This document shows, one piece after another, positions 1-39,101 of a stretch of DNA of 64,000 nucleotides. Positions within the stretch are counted from its first letter, which is position 1. Each line of letters begins with the position of its first letter. The translations under genes were made by a program, and so were the position numbers. The DNA lies in NCBI GenBank assembly GCA_951406725.2, contig OX597837.1:11098001-11162000 (forward strand), in the 5' to 3' direction. The notes below the pieces were generated by a model. That model had not been told where the DNA came from and did not search any database. It was given only the letters and a program-made list of their open reading frames with translations. Origin of the DNA: Octopus vulgaris. Taxonomy: Eukaryota.

Positions 1-1829
1 TTCTGGTTTTGCTGTCTCATTTGATTTGGGAATTAAGATGGTTTTCCCCTTCGTGAGCCATTCAGGCATTGTCTCTGGCTCTGCTAGCATGCTGTTAAAG
101 TTTTCAGCCAGCTTTTTGTGCATTCCTGTTAGATATTTCAACCAGAAGTTGAGGATCTTGTCATGCCCAGGTGCCTTCCAGTTGCTTAGTCTTTGCAGTG
201 CCTGGGTGACCTCTTCAGTTGTTATGGGGGTCCAAAGTTGCTCAGATGCTGAGTTTGTTGTTTTGATACTTCTTTTTTTGGTTGTTCGTTCGCCGACCAT
301 ATTTCTCTCCAGAATTCTTCCACTTCTTCTGCAGTGATTTCTGTTTTATTTTTATTTTTGCCAAGTTCTTGGTAGAACTTTTTGGGGTTGGAGTTGAACT
401 TTTTGTTTTGTTCAAAGAAGCGCTGGCGTTTCTCGTACCGGCGGATCCTTTGTGCTTTGGCAAGGATATCTTGCTTCAGCTTTTCTTTTATCTCAGGTAA
501 ATCTTTTTCTGTGATGTTATATTTGCGGAGTATTTTTGTTCTCTTTTTGTTGCTCAGTAGCGTTGATAGTTTGCTGATTTCATTAAGAATCGACAGATCT
601 TTTCTCATTTTTTAAATTTTGTTTTGGATGTTATTTATCCACAGGGTTCGTTTGGGTGGTGGTACTCCTGTTTGGATGGGTTTGAGTGAGTATCCAGCTT
701 CTTTTGTGGCTGCAGTGGCTGCTGCGTATACTAAGTCATTTAGCTCAGTGATATCGCTTTTTGTTTCAGTGGCTATTAGTTCAGTGACGGCTAGGTTTAT
801 GCTGTTTATAATTGGTGTTGTTGTTTCATTTATTTTGATTTTTGGGAGATATGGTCGGTGGTCCATTTTGAGCTCTGTGGTTTTCAGTTCTTTGATTATT
901 TTACTTTTTATATTATCATAATCATTAGGCTGCCCTTTGTTGTCTCTAGGTTTTAGATTTGTGTTGCTTTCTTTCTTATTTATATGTTTGTTTGCCGTGT
1001 TTTGGCTTGCTGTTTGTCGTGTATTATTATGCATCCTTACAGTCTGGGTTTGTTGTTTTTTATTTATATCGTGTTTGTTGGGAATGTTACGTTTGTCATC
1101 GTGTTTTATTGTTTCAGTGTTTATATTAATGGGCATCGTTGTGTGGCTTCTATCTACATTTTCCTGGTGTATTTTTTCTTTTAGGTGTTCTATTTCTATT
1201 TCTGATATTTTTTTTGCTTTGAGAATGTATCTTCGTACGTTAGCTATTTCATTAGGGTTCATTGCTGTATCCAAGTCTATATTTATGTTATTTTCCTTCC
1301 ATATTTTATACGTATGTGTTGTTGTGTTTACATTTTTTGGGGTAGAGCACTGCTGTGAAGTATGCGTGTAGGATAGAAATGTATTCCTCACGTGTCCATT
1401 TATGTCTTTTGGGTTTTATCTGCGGGACATGAGGAACAACGTCCGGCCCATTACTTTGACGGTCGTCATTTTCGTAGGGTACCGGTCCGTTAATTTCTGT
1501 TGTCACATTGTTTTGCACGTGTGGTTTTTCGTACATTTTGTGTTGTAAGTTCAAGGTACGTACCTCCCTATTGTTATTCTTGGGTTGAATAATATCGGTG
1601 GTATTTAATTTCTTCGTAGTTCCTTCGTACATGGTGTTTGGGGTCGGGGATGATCGTGATGTTCCACGCATGTTTACATGAGTTGTGTTAGAGGTGGAGA
1701 TGATATCGAGGCAAAATACATCATTTCGTTTCGAAAATAGTAATAAATTTTAATGAGCATTACTTACTCGGGTACAGTCCAATCCTTTGTTAGTAAATCT
1801 TTGGTTTCATACGATGTCCTTGTTTTCGA
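1..1829 (-). mobile_element. R4/Dong-clade non-LTR retrotransposon, 5' part (5' UTR, Myb-like N-terminus, start of RT); frameshifted, continues beyond window start
   Basis: Successive minus-strand ORF pieces: KRHKWTREEY (1306-1671), LAKAQRIRRYEKRQRFFEQNKKFNSNPKKFY (222-608), and by manual translation of 1-230 ITTEEVTQALQRLSNWKAPGHDKILNFWLK...PEWLTKGKTILIPK (RT domains 0-1). The 5' end abuts (TAA)n. Confidence 0.88.
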
Positions 1830-2169
<340 letters not shown>

Positions 2170-3016: not shown

Positions 3017-3085
<69 letters not shown>

Positions 3086-8853: not shown

Positions 8854-9462
8854 GGCGGCGAGCTGGCAGAAACGTTAGCAGACCGGGCGAAATGCTTAGC
8901 GGTATTTCGTCTGCCGTTACGTTCTGAGTTCAAATTCCGCCGAGGTCGACTTTGCCTTTCATCCTTTCGGGGTCGATAAATTAAGTACCAGTTATGCACT
9001 GGGGTCGATGTAATCGACTTAATACCTATGTCTGTCCTTGTTTGTCCCCTCTGTGTTTAGCCCCTTGTGGGTAGTAAAGAAATAAGTATTTCGTCTGCTG
9101 TTACGTTCTGAGTTCAAATTCCACCGAGGTCGACTTTGCCTTTCATCCTTTCGGGGTCAAAAAATTAATTACCAGTTATTAAGTACCAGTTACGCACTGG
9201 GGTCGATATAATCGACTTAATCCCTTTGTCTGTCCTTGTTTGTCCTCTCTGTGTTTAGCCCCTTGTGGGCAATAAAGAAATGGGTATTTTGTCTGCTGTT
9301 ATGTTCTGAGTTCAAATTCCGCCGAGGTTGACTTTTCCTTTCATCCTTTCGGGGTCGATAAATTAAGTACCAGTTACGCACTGGGGTCAATGTAGTCGAC
9401 TTAATCCCTTTGTCTGTTCTTTGTCCTCTCTGTGTGTAGCCCCTTGTGAGCAATAAAGAAAT
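8854..9462 (+). mobile_element. SINE A trimer inserted into a SINE B head
   Basis: One head plus three bodies; TSD ttcgcttcccaa at 8842-8853 and 9469-9480; host SINE B at 8818-8853 resumes 9463-9560. Confidence 0.92.
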
Positions 9463-14859: not shown

Positions 14860-15940
14860 CACAATTTGGTCTTAAACGGACCGAGACGGATACAAGCTGA
14901 GTGATTCTAGGCAGATGTGTGAGGCCTTTCGCCAGCACTTTGCCCGATTGTTCGGAGAGAGTGGCAGGGCGAAGGTGGCGGACTTCAGTCCCTACCTCGA
15001 CAGCTTGCCGCGTCTCTCGATGGCAGATGCTGAGTGCTGTGAAAGGTAGATAACTTCAGCCGAAATTAAGGATGCCATTGTCGGCTGCACGAGGCGCACG
15101 TCACCCGGTTTAGATGGTCTGCCCTATGAACATTACGTAAATATGCCAGACTTGTTCTCTGATCTCCTCAAAGCGCTCTACTAAACTGGCAACAGAACGG
15201 GTGTATTCCCAGTTTTGTGAGCCAGGGCGTAGTGACGCTGATAAAGAAGGACGAAAACAAGAGGGACACATTAGATAACTTCAGGCCCATAACTCTGCTC
15301 AACACAGAGTTTAAGATTTTGGCAAAGTATTAGCAAAAAGGTTTGCGCTTGTCGTCGAGGATTTGGTTTGGGAGGCGCAAACCTGCGCAGTCGCGAGTAG
15401 GTCCATACACGACAACTTCCACCTCAGGCGATACATTATAGAAAGGCTTGGGTGTAAACCTGGCTTCGGTTGGGGTGCTGATCAATTTAGATCGATCGAA
15501 AGCATTCGATGGGGTCGACCATCGATATCTAGAGGCTGTCCTCAAAGCGGCTGGCTTCGGCTCCGTCTTCAGAGGTTGGATCGCTGCAATGCACAGCGGC
15601 ATCTGCTCGGTGATCAAAGTTAATAGCCACATCTCGGAACCGTCTCAGATCTCCCGATCGGTCCGTCGAGGTTGTCTTCTCTCCTACCTTCTGTACGTAT
15701 TGACCCTTGAGCCTCTACTTCGGAAGCTGGATCTGCTGCAGGGCATCCCGTTAGAACCGGGACGTAGAAAGGCTGTGTCGGCATAATCGGACGACATCAC
15801 CGTGATGGTGTCGGACACCTCAGACATCGAGGTGGTCGGCACATCATTGGAAGAATATGAAAAGCTGACAGGAGCAAAACTTAACCAGGAAATGTTTGTG
15901 GGCTTGCCTCTCCAGGTGCCAAGTTGAAAGCCCACCGACT
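14860..15940 (+). pseudogene. Tx1/L1-clade LINE ORF2 reverse transcriptase fragment
   Basis: SPGLDGLPYE, NFRPITLLNTEFKILAK, SRSIHDN, INLDRSKAFDGVDH, SVRRGCLLSYLLYVLTLEPL, VSA*SDDITV (decayed YADD), TGAKLN; stops and frameshifts. Confidence 0.9.
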
Positions 15941-16104: not shown

Positions 16105-16120
16105 TTATTATTATTATTAT
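15945..16120. repeat. Compound triplet microsatellite CAT-CGT-TGT-TCT-TAT
   Basis: Directly visible. Confidence 0.95.
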
Positions 16121-16287
16121 AATCTTTCTTCAAATTTTCTTCCGTTTCTCGCCGAGTGTTTTCCGTACACCTAGGGCAGAGAAGCTCATTGTATGCATTC
16201 CCAGATTACACACGCAAATTCACAGGTAACATATGTATTTAAAATGTTAATAAATACATTGTATTTAAAAAATTAATAAATAAATAA

Positions 16288-16290
<3 letters not shown>
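16121..16290 (-). mobile_element. Short 3' UTR fragment of a Dong-like LINE, flanked by (TAA)n
   Basis: ttcaaattttcttccgtttctcgccgagtgttttccgtacacctagggcaga aligns with 17035-17090 ttcaaatttgcttccatttcttgccgagtgtcttcccgactcctagggcaaa. Confidence 0.75.
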
Positions 16291-16357
<67 letters not shown>

Positions 16358-16837
16358 GAGTGAGAGAGCAGTGCATGCCATCAAAGTGACACTGGGGTAA
16401 AATATACGAAGCCCAATATACCCATCATGACTACCCGTCTGATAAGGGTACACCAGGCACATGCATCATAACCATATGTGCGCGACATGGTGATCTCATA
16501 TCAAGATAAACAGCACATGACCTTGCAGGTGGGGCCCAGTTAGAATTTTCTTCAGGTTGAGTAGCCCATCCCGCTCAAACGGTCCCTGAATAAGGGTTGT
16601 TTTAGGATGTTGAAAGAACCACCCATGTTTCCAGAGGTGAATTATTCAAACCCCAAAGAATCCCTCTCAACACATGGCTATGATGCTCCCCCACTACTTC
16701 TGCTCGTGATCAGAGATGCACATATCGTCAGCCACTAAGGGACATGCTCAACTGGTTAAGGTCAAACAACTGACAAGCAAATCTGTGGTATTGAGCAGAA
16801 TATTTGCTGTAGCCCATCTTTTATACCGCATCAGGGC

Positions 16838-16840
<3 letters not shown>
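16358..16840 (-). mobile_element. Element E: non-coding interspersed repeat in (TAA)n, copy with an internal deletion
   Basis: Near-identical to 37686-38262 with the same two termini; (ATT)n on both sides; strand inferred from TAA polarity. Confidence 0.85.
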
Positions 16841-16903
<63 letters not shown>

Positions 16904-16918
16904 CATCATCATCATCAT

Positions 16919-16954
<36 letters not shown>

Positions 16955-16980
16955 TATTATCATCATCATCATCATCATCA

Positions 16981-17019
<39 letters not shown>

Positions 17020-17021
<2 letters not shown>

Positions 17022-18306
17022 TTTTTTTTCTTCTTTCAAATTTGCTTCCATTTCTTGCCGAGTGTCTTCCCGACTCCTAGGGCAAAGAAACTCATAGTGT
17101 ATATTGGTAGGCCATTAAACAAAACTCAGTAGTTCGTTCATTTTTTTAAAAATTAAAATGCATGAGCAGCAACAGTTCTCACATCGACAATGCTCTTCTC
17201 AATACGTGTGATGTACCAGTTAAGACAATCTTTTGCACTTCTTGCAGGGATGGTAAGCCAGGGATCATTCTCATATAATTTTCGGTTCCCTTCTTGATCA
17301 TTCCTAGTGCTCCTACGATCACTGGTATTGTAACCGCCTTGAGATGCCACATTTTCTCAATTTCAATGAGTAGGTCTTTATATTTTCTGAGCTCGTCAAA
17401 CTCTTTCGCTGAGATATTATGATCACAGGGGATGCTCATGTCGATCAATAAGCAAACTTTATTGTTTTGGTCTTTCACAACAATATCTGGTTTATTGGCC
17501 TTGATGGTTCGGTCTGTATGTACTGGAAAGTCCCACAGAATGGTTACATTTTCTCCTTCAGTTACAGCCTCAGGGTGGTGATTATACCACTTGTCGGCAG
17601 TTTTGATATTGTAATGCCGACTTATTAGCCAGTGGAGATATTGGCCAACTCTGTCATGTCTTAATTTATACTCCACTGGTGCTAAGACTTTACATCCAGA
17701 GATTAGGTGGTCCACTGTTTCAATCATGTCGTTGCAGAATCGGCATTTTGGGTCTGCTCCATTTTTCATCACATTGGCCTGGTAGTTCCGGGTTGATAGG
17801 CTTTGGTCTTGAGCAGCCAGGATGAAACCTTCGCTCTCTGCTTTTAGCCCTGAGCTCCGCAGCCACTGATGGGTTTGCTTCTGGTCAACATCAGCTTGTT
17901 TGCTGCGGGTCACATATTTGCCGTGCAGAGGTTTCTCCTCCCACCTATCAGCCAATTGCTCGTGCGCTTTTTTCATTGCCATTATTTTCACCTTCTTTGC
18001 AACAATAGTTGCCGTACTTCCCTCGGGTTGTCCAGTTTGGGTATCCTGCACGAGATCAATAGCAAATTTTTTGCTTTCCTTGATGATAGAATGAAGCTTC
18101 TTTCGTCTCTCGTGATTTTCCACGAGCTTTAGCATCCAGTCATTCGATATTTCGAGATATTTGGCCAGTCCAATTGTGGTTGTTTTGTAAGCTAGTTCAA
18201 ATTGGATCAGGCCTCGACCTCCTTGGGCTCTGGGAAGGTAAAGGCGATCTACGTCTGCCTTTGGGTGGTGCATCCTATTACAACTCAGCAGCTTGCGTAT
18301 TTTTTT
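17020..18306 (-). mobile_element. 5'-truncated R4/Dong-clade LINE: RT thumb, CCHC finger, restriction-like endonuclease and 3' UTR
   Basis: Uninterrupted frame 18306-17179: RLYLPRAQGGRGL, CRFCNDMIETVDHLISGC, RHD, ILWDF, KPDIVV..LLID, KYKDL, IPVIVGALG; flanked by (TAA)n on both sides. Confidence 0.95.
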
Positions 18307-18308
18307 AA

Positions 18309-18366
<58 letters not shown>

Positions 18367-18377
18367 CATTATTATTA

Positions 18378-18468
<91 letters not shown>

Positions 18469-18470
<2 letters not shown>

Positions 18471-19105
18471 GTTTGACTTGCATTGTATTTGTACAGGTTG
18501 ACTGCAAGTCTAATTCAGAGATCTCAAGAGACAATAAGTTGGAAGTTCAAGTTGGTATGACTAAGGTGCCATATTTTTTTTATTATTTCTGCACAGAGTA
18601 TTGTTCTGGAGACTGTCTGCCAAAACATAAAAAAGTTAGCAGTTGTTATATATATATATTTTTTGGTTTTGCACAAAGTATTGTTCTGGAGAATATCTGT
18701 CAAAACACAAGAAAAGTAGAAGTTTGTTTCAAAATTAATGATCTGAAGATGACAGTAAAAAATATTTGCCATTATTTATATTCAAAAGTATTTTTGATAA
18801 TGTTTACTGGTCAAAATGTTTCTAGAATTACATACACAATTTTTTTTCGTAGGATATGACAAATTCCCATGAGCACTATTTTTTTGAATTTCTTCCAAAT
18901 TTTTGGCTTACCTGGTATCTGAGATAAGTAACAATGAACCCCTTTTGCTATCATTCCCAGGGTACCTATGGTAACAGTTATTGTTTTAGTCTTCAGGTCC
19001 AATGTTTTTGCCAATTTCTATTCCAAAGAATATATATCTTTGCTCAGTTTGTTTTGGTAAGTCTTGACAGATACATTTATGTCGATTAGAACAGTCAGTT
19101 CGATT
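18469..19105 (-). mobile_element. Older, degenerate Dong-like LINE 3' end with a different 3' UTR
   Basis: ITVTIGTLGMIAKG, KKIVLMGICHILRK match the C-terminus of the 17179 ORF; (TAA)n on both sides. Confidence 0.8.
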
Positions 19106-26067: not shown

Positions 26068-27261
26068 CCGTATTTGATGGCATATTAGACGCACTGGCAT
26101 ATTAGACGCACCCTCTTTTCAGCAGGTCAAATTCAGGAGAAAAAAGTTTCAAGTGTATTTAAGCATATATTGTTGAAAGCAGTCTAGCAGCACATTACAA
26201 AAGCAGAAAACATTGCTGTATAAAAGCAAGCATACAAAAGGAAAGCATACTAATTACAATAGTAATCATCTTTAATCATCTTTTTAACCAGAAAACTCTT
26301 CATCATCTTCTACACCAGAAAAGTCTTCTAATATTTTTTCTTCATAATCAGCAGGCATTTTTTGTGCAATGGATGTTTTTGTACGTATTGATAAACCCTT
26401 CCGTTTCATAAATCTGTAACACCAACCTTCTGTTCCTGCAAAGTTCTGTATCCCTCGTTGTTCTGCTACTCTCATGGCCTCATGAATTATCATTTTGGTA
26501 GATACACTTCTCCCTGAGTTTCTCTCATCAAGCATCCACGTTTTTATATCATCCTCAAGTTCTGGCCAATGTGGGGCTGGGCAACGAAGGTTATGTTTAC
26601 CTTTCTGTGCTCTCATCAGCTGCTCTTCTTGCTGTCGCCAAACACGTATCATTTTTTCTGTAGGTGGTGGCCCAAAAACCCTTGCTGCTGCTCTATTTCC
26701 ATGCTCCTTGGCATAATCTAGCACTCGTAGTTTGTAGGAGATTTTGTAGCTTGATCTTTTTGCTGCCATAGCCGTGAGGGTGCTTGTACAGTTGTAGTGT
26801 GTTTTGTTATGATCATAAACTTTGTTGTACCAAGATATCCAACCTACCTCCGTATATACACGAACTCGCAACGATCATGTGCATTCCGTAGTTTTACTCC
26901 TCACCGTCAGATGGCATCGAGTTAGGGTTCCGATCAGCTGATATTAGTAAACGTGTGTCATGGATCGCAGCCTAACAATTTACGGTAGATTGCTTTGATT
27001 TTTACGATAATTCGTATTTTAAAGTAATAATACTGGTAATAATAATAATAATAATAATAGCAATAAAATAATGATGCATGTGTACGGAAAATATCATTAA
27101 GGCGTTAGCGTAGGTAGAAATACTTATCGTAAGCTAGGTTAGTGAGCGTCAGGGAGAAGATTAGCCTACGGGAGGGTCTTGACTTCGCATATTAGACGCA
27201 GGGCGATTTTTTGAGCCAAATTTTTTGGAAAAAAGTGCGTCCTATATGCCGTCAAATACGG
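26068..27261 (-). mobile_element. pogo/Tc2-like DNA transposon, internally deleted, both TIRs and TA TSD intact
   Basis: TIRs CCGTATTTGATGGCATATTAGACGCAC / GTGCGTCCTATATGCCGTCAAATACGG (24/27); TA at 26066-67 and 27262-63; subterminal gcatattagacgca repeats. Confidence 0.95.
26284..26769 (-). CDS. Truncated pogo-family transposase: Brinker-like DBD, CENP-B HTH and acidic tail, no DDE domain (161 aa from ATG 26769)
   Basis: MAAKRSSYKISYKLRVLDYAKEHGNRAAARVFG..EKMIRVWR; WPELED...FAGTEGWCYRFMKRKGLSIRTKTSIAQKMP; ends EDFSGVEDDEEFSG*. Confidence 0.8.
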   Translation of the reverse strand: MAAKRSSYKISYKLRVLDYAKEHGNRAAARVFGPPPTEKMIRVWRQQEEQLMRAQKGKHNLRCPAPHWPELEDDIKTWMLDERNSGRSVSTKMIIHEAMRVAEQRGIQNFAGTEGWCYRFMKRKGLSIRTKTSIAQKMPADYEEKILEDFSGVEDDEEFSG

Positions 27262-29785: not shown

Positions 29786-29850
29786 GCCCTGATGCAGTAC
29801 CAGGCAGTGGCTCTCATGGCTTCTGATCTTAACTGATTGGAGGTGTTATC
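29786..29850 (+). mobile_element. Terminal fragment of element E
   Basis: gccctgatgcagtaccaggcagtggctctcatggcttctgatcttaactgattgg is the reverse complement of 38184-38239; directly follows (AAT)n. Confidence 0.85.
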
Positions 29851-30419
29851 GAACTCGATATATCGTGTTTGCAAAAATAACTCGTCGCTATGGGAGGATG
29901 AACTACTAGTGTCCTTCTCAAGATGGCGACTACTTGTGTAGGGCGACTGCACTCCGTATCCGAATGCAAGGGTCGATACCTTATCAGGCTGTGAAGTAGC
30001 TCTATAGGTGTTTCGAGCCTCTCTTCTGCTATGAGAGGATGAATCAAAGGCGTCCTTCGAAAAACCATGCTTAATAATCTATCGGAAGACACAGCGGTGC
30101 CGTGATAAATTAATGATTCATAGATACTGACAGCAAGAAAAGATACGTGAGATGTCTATCATTTTGTTCTACGTAAATGGTAAAAGTGCTAAGTAGCGAT
30201 CGATAGACAATGAAGATAGAGATGACAAAAAAAAAATGGTGCTGGAATTATGTAACCAATGAATTTCTTTGATTAAATGACAAACGTAAGATAATTCCTG
30301 ACAACTCTTCAAAGATCTGTCTCAGCATGCAATTAGCATCTCTTCCTGGTTTTGCGTTTGGTCAAAGCTTTTAAACATTTTTCGCTATTCCTGCTTTGAA
30401 AATAACGAACGCCAATAAT

Positions 30420-37326: not shown

Positions 37327-37370
<44 letters not shown>

Positions 37371-37428
37371 ATTATTATTATAATTATTATTATAATTATT
37401 ATTATAATTATTATTATTATTATTATTA

Positions 37429-37495
<67 letters not shown>

Positions 37496-37551
37496 TATTA
37501 TTATTATCATTATTATTATTATTATTATTATTATAATTATTATTATAATTA

Positions 37552-37591
<40 letters not shown>

Positions 37592-37615
37592 CATTATTAT
37601 TATTATTATTATCAC

Positions 37616-37685
<70 letters not shown>
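37219..37685. repeat. (ATT)n microsatellite
   Basis: Directly visible. Confidence 0.98.
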
Positions 37686-38262
37686 GAGTGAGAGAGCAGT
37701 TCATGCCATCAAAGTGACACTGGGGTAAAATATACGAAGCCCAATATACCCATCATGACTACCCGTCTGATAAGGGTACACCAGGCACATGCATCACAAC
37801 CATATGTGCGCGACATGGTGATCTCATATCAAGATAATCAGCACATGACCTTGCAGGTGGGGCCCAGTTAGAATTTTCTTCAGGTTGAGTAGCCCATCCC
37901 GCTCAAAAGGTCCCTGAATAAGGGTTGTTTAAGGATGTTGAAAGAACCACCCATGTTTCCAGAGGTGAACTATTCAAACCCCAAAGAATCCCTCTCAACA
38001 CATGGCTATGATGCTCCCCCACTACTTCTGCTCGTGATCAGAGATGCACATATCGTCAGCCACTAAGGGACATGCTCAACTGGTTACGGTCAAACAACTG
38101 ACAAGCAAATCTGTGGTATTGAGCAGAATATTTGCTGTAGGCCATCTTTTATACCAAGACAAAACAATGTACATGATAACACTTCCAATCAGTTAAGATC
38201 AGAAGCCATGAGAGCCACTGCCTGGTACTGCATCAGGGCATCCTGGTACTGCATCAGGGCAT
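37686..38262 (-). mobile_element. Element E, apparently complete copy with a 21-bp terminal tandem duplication
   Basis: gagtgagagagcag...(cctggtactgcatcagggcat)x2; (ATT)n on both sides. Confidence 0.88.
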
Positions 38263-38273
38263 TTATTATTATA

Positions 38274-38378
<105 letters not shown>

Positions 38379-39101
38379 CCATTTAAAAACTTTTCTTGGA
38401 ATTGGTTGAACGAAAAAAGTTAATGAATAAATAAAAAAAAAAACAAATCGGTTTACTTTGCATCGTGTAAATGAAATTTTTAAATGCTTCAAGTCAATTG
38501 TAAACAAGGCTTAAATTCCAATTTAAGATTTTAATATATGTATCGTTTTTAATGGAGAAAACCAACTAAACAAAACAAAAGAAGAAAAATTCATCTTTGG
38601 GAATATTAGAAAAAAATTATATTTATCAAAAATATTTTTTAAAAAATTATTTTTGCGTGTTCACAATAAAATTCATAAAATTTTGATCCGATCATGAAAA
38701 AGTAAAGAAAAAATGAATTAAAAATTAATATTTCCGTTTCATTCAGTTATAAATATTGGAAATGTATCAGATTTTAGGAGATAATGATATAGGGAAATTC
38801 TGACGTGACGTACATGAGTGTCAGAGACAGGAAATTCTGAAATATCTCTGCTGTAAATCTTAAACATTTGCGAGAACTGCTTTCATTCATTCATGTTCAC
38901 AGTGAAGTTCAATTACTCAGGTAAGTATAAAACCCCAAAAACTTGTCAACCTGGGAAGTGTTTTGAAGAGGTGCAATTCCTCTGGATTTCACCAGAACAA
39001 CATAATTTTAGATTTTAGCCCTTTTACGAGTTCTGTTGTTGATTCACCATTTTCTCCACACTTATCTGTTATTGCAGCCTCTGTTTTATTCTTTACTTTT
39101 G

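What the first reader, a model, noticed from the sequence alone, without database searches (positions are those of the whole stretch)
37686..38262. Element E: fixed-ended ~560-bp non-coding element living in (TAA)n
Seen: two near-identical copies (16358-16840, 37686-38262) share both termini, and a third terminal fragment (29786) is in the opposite orientation. All abut (TAA)n with consistent polarity. There is no ORF, TIR, tRNA head or visible homology to the Dong 3' UTRs here, but there are local hairpins (taccc-gtctgataa-gggta). Inference: a non-autonomous, site-specific retroposon of unknown RNA origin using R4/Dong machinery, analogous to R2-dependent SIDE elements. I do not recognise it as a described family.
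Basis: partly seen in the sequence, partly recalled or inferred. Interest (0 to 1): 0.72.

Follow-up and report, generated by a model that had tools for sequence, protein, structure and literature searches.

The report
TAA-targeting SINE-like parasite of Dong
This is one copy of a 556-base non-coding jumping element, present over eleven thousand times in what is likely an octopus genome, that sits in TAA repeats exactly as Dong retrotransposons do and likely borrows their enzyme, possibly by imitating a small RNA hairpin at their tail rather than by sharing their sequence.

Summary
Element E is real: a 556-bp non-coding unit (sense = minus strand). Exact 28-mers of its 3' and 5' ends occur 11,409 and 4,864 times. 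All 30 head-anchored copies reach the same 3' end; 13 of 30 tail-anchored copies are 5'-truncated, 10 of them abutting (AAT)n. This is the polarity, target and junction phase of the genome's Dong LINEs, and two copies are fused directly to Dong coding fragments. It is not a LINE UTR, solo LTR, MITE or tRNA/5S SINE. Its tail folds into a bulged stem-loop that fits, pair for pair, a covarying hairpin of Dong 3' UTRs (the scan noted that Dong hairpin earlier on other DNA). The model score is weak (6.6 bits, E 0.27), and primary-sequence homology to Dong is not shown. No 5' ribozyme was found, but the test also failed on Dong itself. The second window copy lacks 74 bases near the 5' end. A MITE shares E's bases 103-272. 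Verdict: a Dong-dependent SINE-like retroposon (0.8), not a demonstrated SIDE; closest to Entamoeba R4-clade SINEs but microsatellite-specific. Repbase and Dfam could not be checked.

The parts
37686..38241 (-). Element E copy 1, full 556-bp unit (5' end at 38241, 3' end at 37686)
38242..38262 (-). Exact 21-bp tandem duplicate of the 5' head; this junction occurs 12 times in the genome, on several subfamily haplotypes
37739..37786 (-). Predicted 3' bulged stem-loop (13-bp outer stem, 7-bp inner stem with a bulged A, 5-nt loop at 37760-37764); its core 37743-37780 aligns in register to the Dong 3' UTR hairpin model
37970..38139 (-). Segment (unit bases 103-272) shared with a MITE family; 96.5% identical between the two majority sequences
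37330..37685 (-). (AAT)n-rich target array 3' of copy 1
38263..38375 (-). (AAT)n target array 5' of copy 1
16358..16839 (-). Element E copy 2, 482 bp, lacks unit bases 13-86; (AAT)n on both sides, between two Dong remnants of the same polarity
29786..29850 (+). Head-only fragment of E (about unit bases 3-67), (AAT)n upstream, unrelated sequence downstream
17020..18311 (-). 5'-truncated Dong (my family DongA), a candidate partner; 3' hairpin at 17051-17087
16120..16289 (-). 3' remnant of a related Dong family; hairpin at 16145-16181
1..1830 (-). 5' part of a near-full-length Dong (my family DongB), a candidate partner; continues beyond the window start

Best explanation
E is a high-copy, 556-bp non-coding repeat with a fixed 3' end and variably truncated 5' ends that sits in (AAT)n arrays, and it is likely copied by target-primed reverse transcription using the protein of Dong (R4-clade) LINEs, which would likely recognise a stem-loop about 55-100 nt from its 3' end. 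Shown: unit length, copy number, truncation polarity, target and phase, two Dong-E fusions. Inferred (about 0.8): Dong supplies the endonuclease and reverse transcriptase, nicks the TAA array and primes at E's fixed 3' end; the (AAT)n behind each copy is target DNA. Inferred (about 0.55): the hairpin is the binding signal, conserved in shape rather than sequence, which would let E outlive one Dong family and use another. Untested: how the RNA gets its precise 5' end. Most likely it is Pol II or read-through transcription from a few source loci, since there are no Pol III boxes and three internal T4 runs.
For: Copy number and polarity: 11,409 exact 3'-end 28-mers against 4,864 5'-end 28-mers, controls 0. 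Of the first 30 tail-anchored copies, 17 start within the first 15 nt and 13 are truncated at bases 37-348; one carries a 5' inversion (L093). All 30 head-anchored copies reach the same 3' end, one through an internal deletion. Target: (AAT)n downstream in 29 of 30 tail-anchored copies, upstream in 28 of 30 head-anchored copies and in 10 of 13 truncated copies; opposite polarity in 0 of 60 loci (the two sets share some copies); background 0.6-2.3%. Truncated DongA copies behave alike, 14 of 15 with a visible 5' junction. The first six bases after the 3' end are AATAAT in 67 of 76 E ends, 32 of 35 DongA, 21 of 26 DongB and 9 of 9 F2. Both E (L125, L137) and Dong (L050, L084, L197, L212) also occur in (AAG)n. 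Chimeras: 2 of 104 E copies with an intact 3' end are joined without any TAA to Dong coding fragments that themselves contain an internal jump (L086 with DongB, L016 with F3). Head duplications occur in E and in DongB 5' ends. Hairpin: the only 60-nt window of E with a strong fold (z -3.5; 1 of 1000 shuffles). Dong-only alignment of 13 tails: 89.7% of cells paired, covariation 0.753, 0 of 500 shuffles. A model from those tails puts its best hit in E on this hairpin, on the sense strand, with all 12 pairs formed. The three common variants in the stem all keep pairing. Dong is abundant and has intact 1,235-aa frames (83,003 candidates).
Against: The model score on E is not significant: 6.6 bits, E 0.27 in 578 nt. 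E is absent from the 16 window hits at E up to 10, and only 1 of 30 tail-anchored copies was hit (L091, 12.5 bits). A model lacking families F3, F5 and F11 gives E only 1.5 bits, third of four hits, although held-out Dong families also scored low (11.6, 2.5 or less, 7.9). Pairwise similarity to the F3 tail majority is marginal (22-109 of 1000 shuffles); one F3 copy gave 0 of 300, but I had picked that family by eye. My descriptor (70 of 5000 tail shuffles) was written with E in view and missed families F1 and F5-F7 and 51 of 52 F0 tails. Three pair-keeping variants could arise by chance. The chimeras could be double deletions after insertion. The LINEs are called Dong from target site and recalled domain motifs, not from a tree with reference elements. 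No retrotransposition assay, and no raw RNA reads were available.
Confidence: 0.8

Rival explanations
1. E is a true SIDE: an internally deleted derivative of an old Dong family, keeping that family's 5' end and 3' UTR, whose parent has decayed or was not sampled. This differs from the best explanation in origin, not in the enzyme used.
For: Same target and polarity as Dong. The tail scores better once the old F3/F5/F11 families are in the model (6.6 against 1.5 bits). Precise 5' end and head duplications as in DongB. Dong of B. mori has a self-cleaving 5' ribozyme (PMC3774820, passages). The 5' ends of F2-F7 were not obtained.
Against: No blastn match to 12 long DongA loci other than neighbouring E copies. 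No protein remnant in six frames. No HDV-like fold under a strict descriptor, which also failed on DongA and DongB. The listed loose ends in eight contig sets point to a MITE, TAA or E itself, not to a parent LINE (only the best-supported rows are shown).
Confidence: 0.25
2. E is an ordinary Pol III SINE with a decayed tRNA or 5S head, moved by an APE-type LINE (RTE, CR1, L2, I) that leaves (TAA)n tails.
For: SINE-like size and copy number. Stem-loops at 3' ends are common in stringent LINE/SINE pairs, and the I element ends in TAA repeats (PMC3747384, passages). One B-box-like site with one mismatch at base 118.
Against: No tRNA, no A or B box, three internal T4 runs, no 5S similarity (148 of 500 shuffles as good), no credible Rfam hit. 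Truncated 5' ends abut (AAT)n in 10 of 13 copies, which a tail cannot explain, and a copy in (GAA)n has no AAT tail (L125). The common tRNA-type SINE here has the opposite polarity (34 of 92 heads after TTA, 0 after AAT).
Confidence: 0.07
3. E is merely the 3' UTR of a LINE, a solo LTR, or a MITE.
For: 170 bp are shared with a MITE family.
Against: All 30 head-anchored copies are unit-length; none of the 30 tail-anchored copies continues past E's head into a parent. No terminal repeats. Truncation is one-sided. The MITE has its own inverted ends of about 120 bp and is not TAA-flanked.
Confidence: 0.03
4. E is a Penelope-mobilised retrozyme-like element.
For: Penelope-like elements with internal (TAA)n are reported in this genome by earlier scan notes (unchecked), and E sometimes sits inside such arrays (L090).
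Against: No hammerhead hit in Rfam; the CUGANGA and GAAA words in E are not joined by a stem II (by inspection). No tandem-unit or inverted-end architecture in the 60 sampled loci apart from one 5' inversion.
Confidence: 0.03

Closest known systems
Entamoeba SINE-like elements EhSINE1, EdSINE1 and R4-N1_ED, paired with EhLINE1 or R4-1_ED (PMC2996970, passages; PMC3747384, passages and table rows)
   Same: About 500-600 bp, non-coding, promoter unknown with at most weak A/B boxes, body unrelated to the partner; EdSINE1 and R4-N1_ED are listed with an R4 LINE partner.
   Different: EhSINE1 shares about 70 bp of 3' sequence with its LINE, is polyadenylated and lacks targeted insertion (PMC1635306, start of abstract in listing). 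E shares no demonstrable sequence with its partner, has no poly(A), is specific for (AAT)n, has over 11,000 copies against 393, and is in an animal.
R2 SIDE and R2/R1 hybrid SIDE of Drosophila (PMC3414825, abstract and outline; PMC3774820, passages)
   Same: Short non-autonomous passenger of a site-specific non-LTR element, same target as the partner, defined 5' end, template jumps.
   Different: SIDEs are recognisable 5' ribozyme plus 3' UTR pieces of R2 or R1 in rDNA. E has no detected ribozyme and no recognisable Dong 5' or 3' sequence, and it targets a dispersed microsatellite.
Dong (R4 clade) of B. mori, A. gambiae, B. glabrata, D. stevensoni and Octopus (PMC3812793, PMC7998251, PMC9115989, passages; PMC13282606, part 1 of 3)
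   Same: (TAA)n target; polarity, junction phase and a 3' stem-loop of the same layout as the Dong families of this genome.
   Different: Dong encodes its own protein; E encodes none.
Bipartite ORF-less non-autonomous LINEs (PMC5786205, section 23 and passages)
   Same: ORF-less, probably Pol II, dependent on a LINE.
   Different: That paper lists them only for RTE, Ingi, Vingi and R2, and they keep sequence of the parent's two ends, which E was not shown to do.

Membership tests
Non-autonomous TPRT retroposon (SINE-like) | Short, non-coding, dispersed at high copy | tested here: met
Non-autonomous TPRT retroposon (SINE-like) | Fixed 3' end with variable 5' truncation, inversions or jumps | tested here: met
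   13 of 30 truncated, one inversion; 30 of 30 head-anchored copies reach the 3' end
Non-autonomous TPRT retroposon (SINE-like) | Target-site duplication | tested here: inconclusive
   cannot be resolved inside (AAT)n arrays
Non-autonomous TPRT retroposon (SINE-like) | Mobilised in trans by a LINE protein | not testable with these tools
   inferred from target, phase and two chimeras
Canonical Pol III SINE (tRNA, 5S, 7SL head) | Head derived from a Pol III RNA, with internal promoter boxes | tested here: not met
Canonical Pol III SINE (tRNA, 5S, 7SL head) | Body free of T4 terminators | tested here: not met
   T4 at unit bases 78, 334 and 512
Canonical Pol III SINE (tRNA, 5S, 7SL head) | Conserved SINE core (CORE, Deu/Nin, V, Ceph, Meta) | not testable with these tools
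   no consensus library was available
SIDE / bipartite non-autonomous LINE | Same target site as the partner | tested here: met
SIDE / bipartite non-autonomous LINE | 5' end homologous to the partner's 5' end | tested here: inconclusive
   no match to DongA and none by inspection to DongB; 5' ends of the older families not obtained
SIDE / bipartite non-autonomous LINE | HDV-like 5' ribozyme | tested here: inconclusive
   no strict hit in E, but none in DongA or DongB either; relaxed hits at shuffle level, 27 of 100
SIDE / bipartite non-autonomous LINE | 3' end with sequence identity to the partner's 3' UTR | tested here: not met
   marginal at best against 11 tail clusters and the F3 majority; structural fit only
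EhSINE / R4-N1 type | About 70 bp of 3' sequence shared with an R4-clade LINE | tested here: not met
Dong 3' hairpin carrier | Outer stem, 3-nt 5' bulge, 6-bp inner stem, N-GG-NN loop near the (AAT)n junction | tested here: inconclusive
   all 12 pairs formed in register, but 6.6 bits (E 0.27) and 12.5 bits (E 0.004) in two alleles; loop 79 nt from the end against about 25-84 in Dong
LINE 3' UTR fragment, solo LTR or MITE | Continues into a longer parent, or has terminal direct or inverted repeats | tested here: not met

The most novel reading that the evidence does not exclude
E is an animal SINE-like parasite of a microsatellite-specific Dong LINE that has neither a Pol III head nor partner-derived sequence. 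It is recognised purely by the shape of a 3' hairpin, and has switched partners from a now-decayed Dong family (F3 type) to currently active ones.
Probability: 0.4. Interest if true: 0.68.

Novelty: new variant of a known kind. Interest (0 to 1): 0.5.

Why it matters
I found no described SINE-like partner for TAA-targeting Dong elements in ten literature searches. One survey lists ORF-less bipartite LINEs only for RTE, Ingi, Vingi and R2. E gives a 556-nt natural substrate with over 11,000 insertions, young copies (1-2 differences between loci) and intact candidate partners. It makes the RNA-recognition rule of R4/Dong proteins directly testable, including whether a site-specific LINE protein selects RNA by fold alone. 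It would also assign a mechanism to one of the many unclassified octopus SINE-like families (893 listed as recently active in PMC13282606).

Tried and rejected
Rfam on 37600-38400: only two composition-driven hits far below gathering score. 5S origin, suggested by eye: rejected, 148 of 500 shuffles as good. Dong coding remnant, suggested by eye: rejected. An H-type pseudoknot reading of the tail was my first idea; a nested two-tier hairpin explains the same bases and has covariation support in Dong, so the pseudoknot is not claimed. The primary-sequence link to the F3 tail weakened when the family majority was used. HDV descriptor uninformative. No full-length F3 element among 30 loci. A DNA search with the last 114 bp returned nothing because common words are skipped. 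Sequencing runs: no RNA holder listed; the laid runs were contigs, so strand, start and level of RNA are unknown. The bacterial promoter scan is not relevant. Six 15-mers of E occur in no searched paper text. Repbase, Dfam and the O. vulgaris repeat library could not be searched; the one supplement of PMC13282606 that I searched gave summary counts. A family this abundant is probably present in such libraries as an unclassified repeat. Look-ups in earlier scan findings by sequence and by words found no note on E itself.

Full report
Setting. The window lies on contig C24 of G000, 2.8 Gb in 227 contigs. Family labels (DongA = F0, DongB = F1, F2-F11) are mine. The LINEs are called Dong from their (TAA)n target and from recalled domain motifs in a 1,235-aa frame, not from a tree.

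Observation. Copy 1 is 37686-38241 on the minus strand, with an exact 21-bp duplicate of its head at 38242-38262. Copy 2 (16358-16839) differs at 8 of 470 positions but lacks unit bases 13-86. The piece at 29786-29850 is the head only, on the plus strand, followed by unrelated sequence. There is no long frame, no tRNA, no terminal repeat and no credible Rfam hit.

Family. Exact 28-mers from the 3' and 5' ends occur 11,409 and 4,864 times; reversed controls give 0. I examined the first 30 listed matches of each pattern, all from contig C1; some copies are in both sets. Tail-anchored: 17 of 30 start within the first 15 nt, 13 are truncated at bases 37-348, and one has a 5' inversion. Head-anchored: all 30 reach the same 3' end, one through an internal deletion. 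Identity to the majority runs from 85 to 99.5%, with medians of 97.0 and 97.8%; the closest pair of loci differs at one base. Contigs of eight public runs, assigned to six organism codes, hold the element; in one (X18) nearly half of the laid contigs are under 90% alike. E is therefore a unit-length family, shared across several organisms and still recently active. One-sided truncation is the established signature of target-primed reverse transcription and fixes the sense strand.

Target. (AAT)n follows 29 of 30 tail-anchored copies, and precedes 28 of 30 head-anchored copies and 10 of 13 truncated copies; none has the opposite polarity; background is 0.6% to 2.3%. The three exceptions among truncated copies are the inversion, an internal deletion and a Dong fusion. 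Truncated DongA copies show the same (14 of the 15 with a visible junction, among 29 loci). The junction phase AATAAT is shared by E (67 of 76), DongA (32 of 35), DongB (21 of 26) and F2 (9 of 9); F3 gave 4 of 11, and the F5 pattern was too short to be specific. A copy in (GAA)n has no AAT tail (L125), so the repeat comes from the target. Dong copies use (AAG)n too. Among 443 ends lying 5' of (AAT)5 in my loci, the large clusters were E, Dong families, the reverse strand of a tRNA-type SINE head and one element with internal TAA. That sample is biased towards E and Dong, and only a Dong profile was used to call coding sequence. Dong targeting of TAA is documented (PMC3812793 and PMC7998251, passages).

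Direct traces of the partner. Of 104 distinct E copies with an intact 3' end, 27 lack a TAA run at the 5' junction. Most of these are head duplications or internal jumps of E itself. Two are fused to Dong coding sequence: L086 reads (AAT)n, 88 nt of DongB, a jump, 306 nt of DongB, then E from base 241; L016 reads repeat array, two non-adjacent F3 coding pieces, then E from base 118, at a short similarity. Serial template switching during one insertion explains both; two later deletions each would too. In vivo template jumps are reported for R2 (PMC3414825, abstract). The 21-mer head duplication occurs 12 times exactly, on different haplotypes, so it likely arises at insertion; DongB 5' ends show similar duplications.

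No parent found. E has no blastn match to 12 long DongA loci apart from neighbouring E copies and no protein remnant. Its tail matches 10 of 11 tail clusters no better than shuffles; one F3 copy gave 0 of 300, but the F3 majority gave 22-109 of 1000 depending on scoring. The best-supported loose ends in the contigs lead to TAA, to E itself or to one other family. That family is a MITE of about 480 bp with inverted ends of about 120 bp at 75% (215 exact matches to a 30-mer); it holds E bases 103-272 at 96.5% between majorities, and its copies lie about 10% from their own majority. The direction of transfer is unresolved.

The 3' hairpin. Unit bases 456-503 fold into a 13-bp outer stem, a 2-nt bulge, a 7-bp inner stem and a 5-nt loop; it is the only strongly folding 60-nt window of the 20 tested (z -3.5; 1 of 1000 shuffles). 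Thirteen Dong tails from several families align without gaps on the same layout with real covariation (8 of 12 pairs with double changes, score 0.753, 0 of 500 shuffles; slid controls 0.21 or less). I left F1, F6 and F7 out of that alignment because they did not fit the register. An earlier scan note reports this Dong hairpin on other DNA; I saw it after these tests. A model built from Dong alone finds the Dong tails of the window (41.2, 37.6 and 14.8 bits). Within E its best hit is this hairpin, on the sense strand, with all 12 pairs formed and one inserted base, but at 6.6 bits, E 0.27; the L091 allele reaches 12.5 bits, E 0.004, and it is the only one of 30 copies hit at E up to 10 in 91 kb. 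With F3, F5 and F11 held out, they score 11.6, 2.5 or less and 7.9 bits, and E scores 1.5. The fit is thus suggestive, near the low end for unseen Dong families, and not proof. Such stem-loops are a known signal in stringent LINE/SINE pairs (PMC3747384, passages).

The head. There is no tRNA, A or B box or 5S similarity, and there are three internal T4 runs, which argues against Pol III. The 5' end is precise: 21 of 30 head-anchored junctions keep the unit's first two bases after A or T of the array, and the rest begin at base 2 or 3. B. mori Dong self-cleaves at its 5' end (PMC3774820, passages), but my HDV descriptor found nothing in E, DongA or DongB, so this stays open.

Comparison. E works like an R2 SIDE and like the Entamoeba SINE-like partners of R4-clade LINEs. 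It fails or leaves open the membership tests of both, because no partner-derived sequence is shown. It is not a canonical SINE. Ten paper searches gave no description of a Dong-dependent, TAA-specific non-coding family. Subscription papers, Repbase and Dfam were not covered, and a repeat this abundant is probably catalogued there without a mechanism.

Verdict. Real feature. Dong-mobilised non-autonomous retroposon, 0.8; hairpin as the recognition signal, about 0.55; true SIDE origin, 0.25. New variant of a known kind; interest 0.5.

Noticed in passing
L150-L169 (about 1170-1650 in motif orientation); shared part = window 37970-38139: A MITE of about 480 bp with imperfect inverted ends of about 120 bp carries 170 bp of E; at least 215 copies. 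Donor and recipient are unresolved.
   Followed up: partly
L086:825-1530; L016 minus strand, near 3079 in that orientation: Dong-E chimeras with serial jumps and no TAA at the joins, candidates for template switching.
   Followed up: partly
window 8864-9102 and its family: The abundant tRNA-type SINE often has (TTA)n upstream of its head (34 of 92 heads; 0 with AAT), the opposite polarity to Dong and E; 1 of 35 ends of this query had TTA downstream.
   Followed up: partly
L076, L080, L081, L084 (DongA 5' ends): Full-length DongA has a 5' UTR of about 1.6 kb with an internal tandem duplication and a G+C-rich, hairpin-forming 5' tip that looks ribozyme-like but failed my HDV descriptor.
   Followed up: partly
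L201-L215 (DongB 5' ends): Several full-length DongB copies carry short tandem duplications of their first 15-30 bases.
   Followed up: partly
window 16120-19100: A same-strand chain of three Dong remnants and one E copy separated by simple-repeat arrays or short spacers.
   Followed up: no
window 26287-26874, minus strand: Frame with BrkDBD and HTH_Tnp_Tc5 hits, a pogo-like transposase N-terminus.
   Followed up: no
window 15442-15783, plus strand: Reverse transcriptase fragment (RVT_1, E 5e-6) of a LINE other than Dong.
   Followed up: no
window 29948-30030: An old short repeat directly beyond the E head fragment, 11 other matches at 76-84%.
   Followed up: no
G000 C4 35.2-35.3 Mb (L146, L147, L149): A 5S rRNA gene cluster with copies on both strands.
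   Followed up: no
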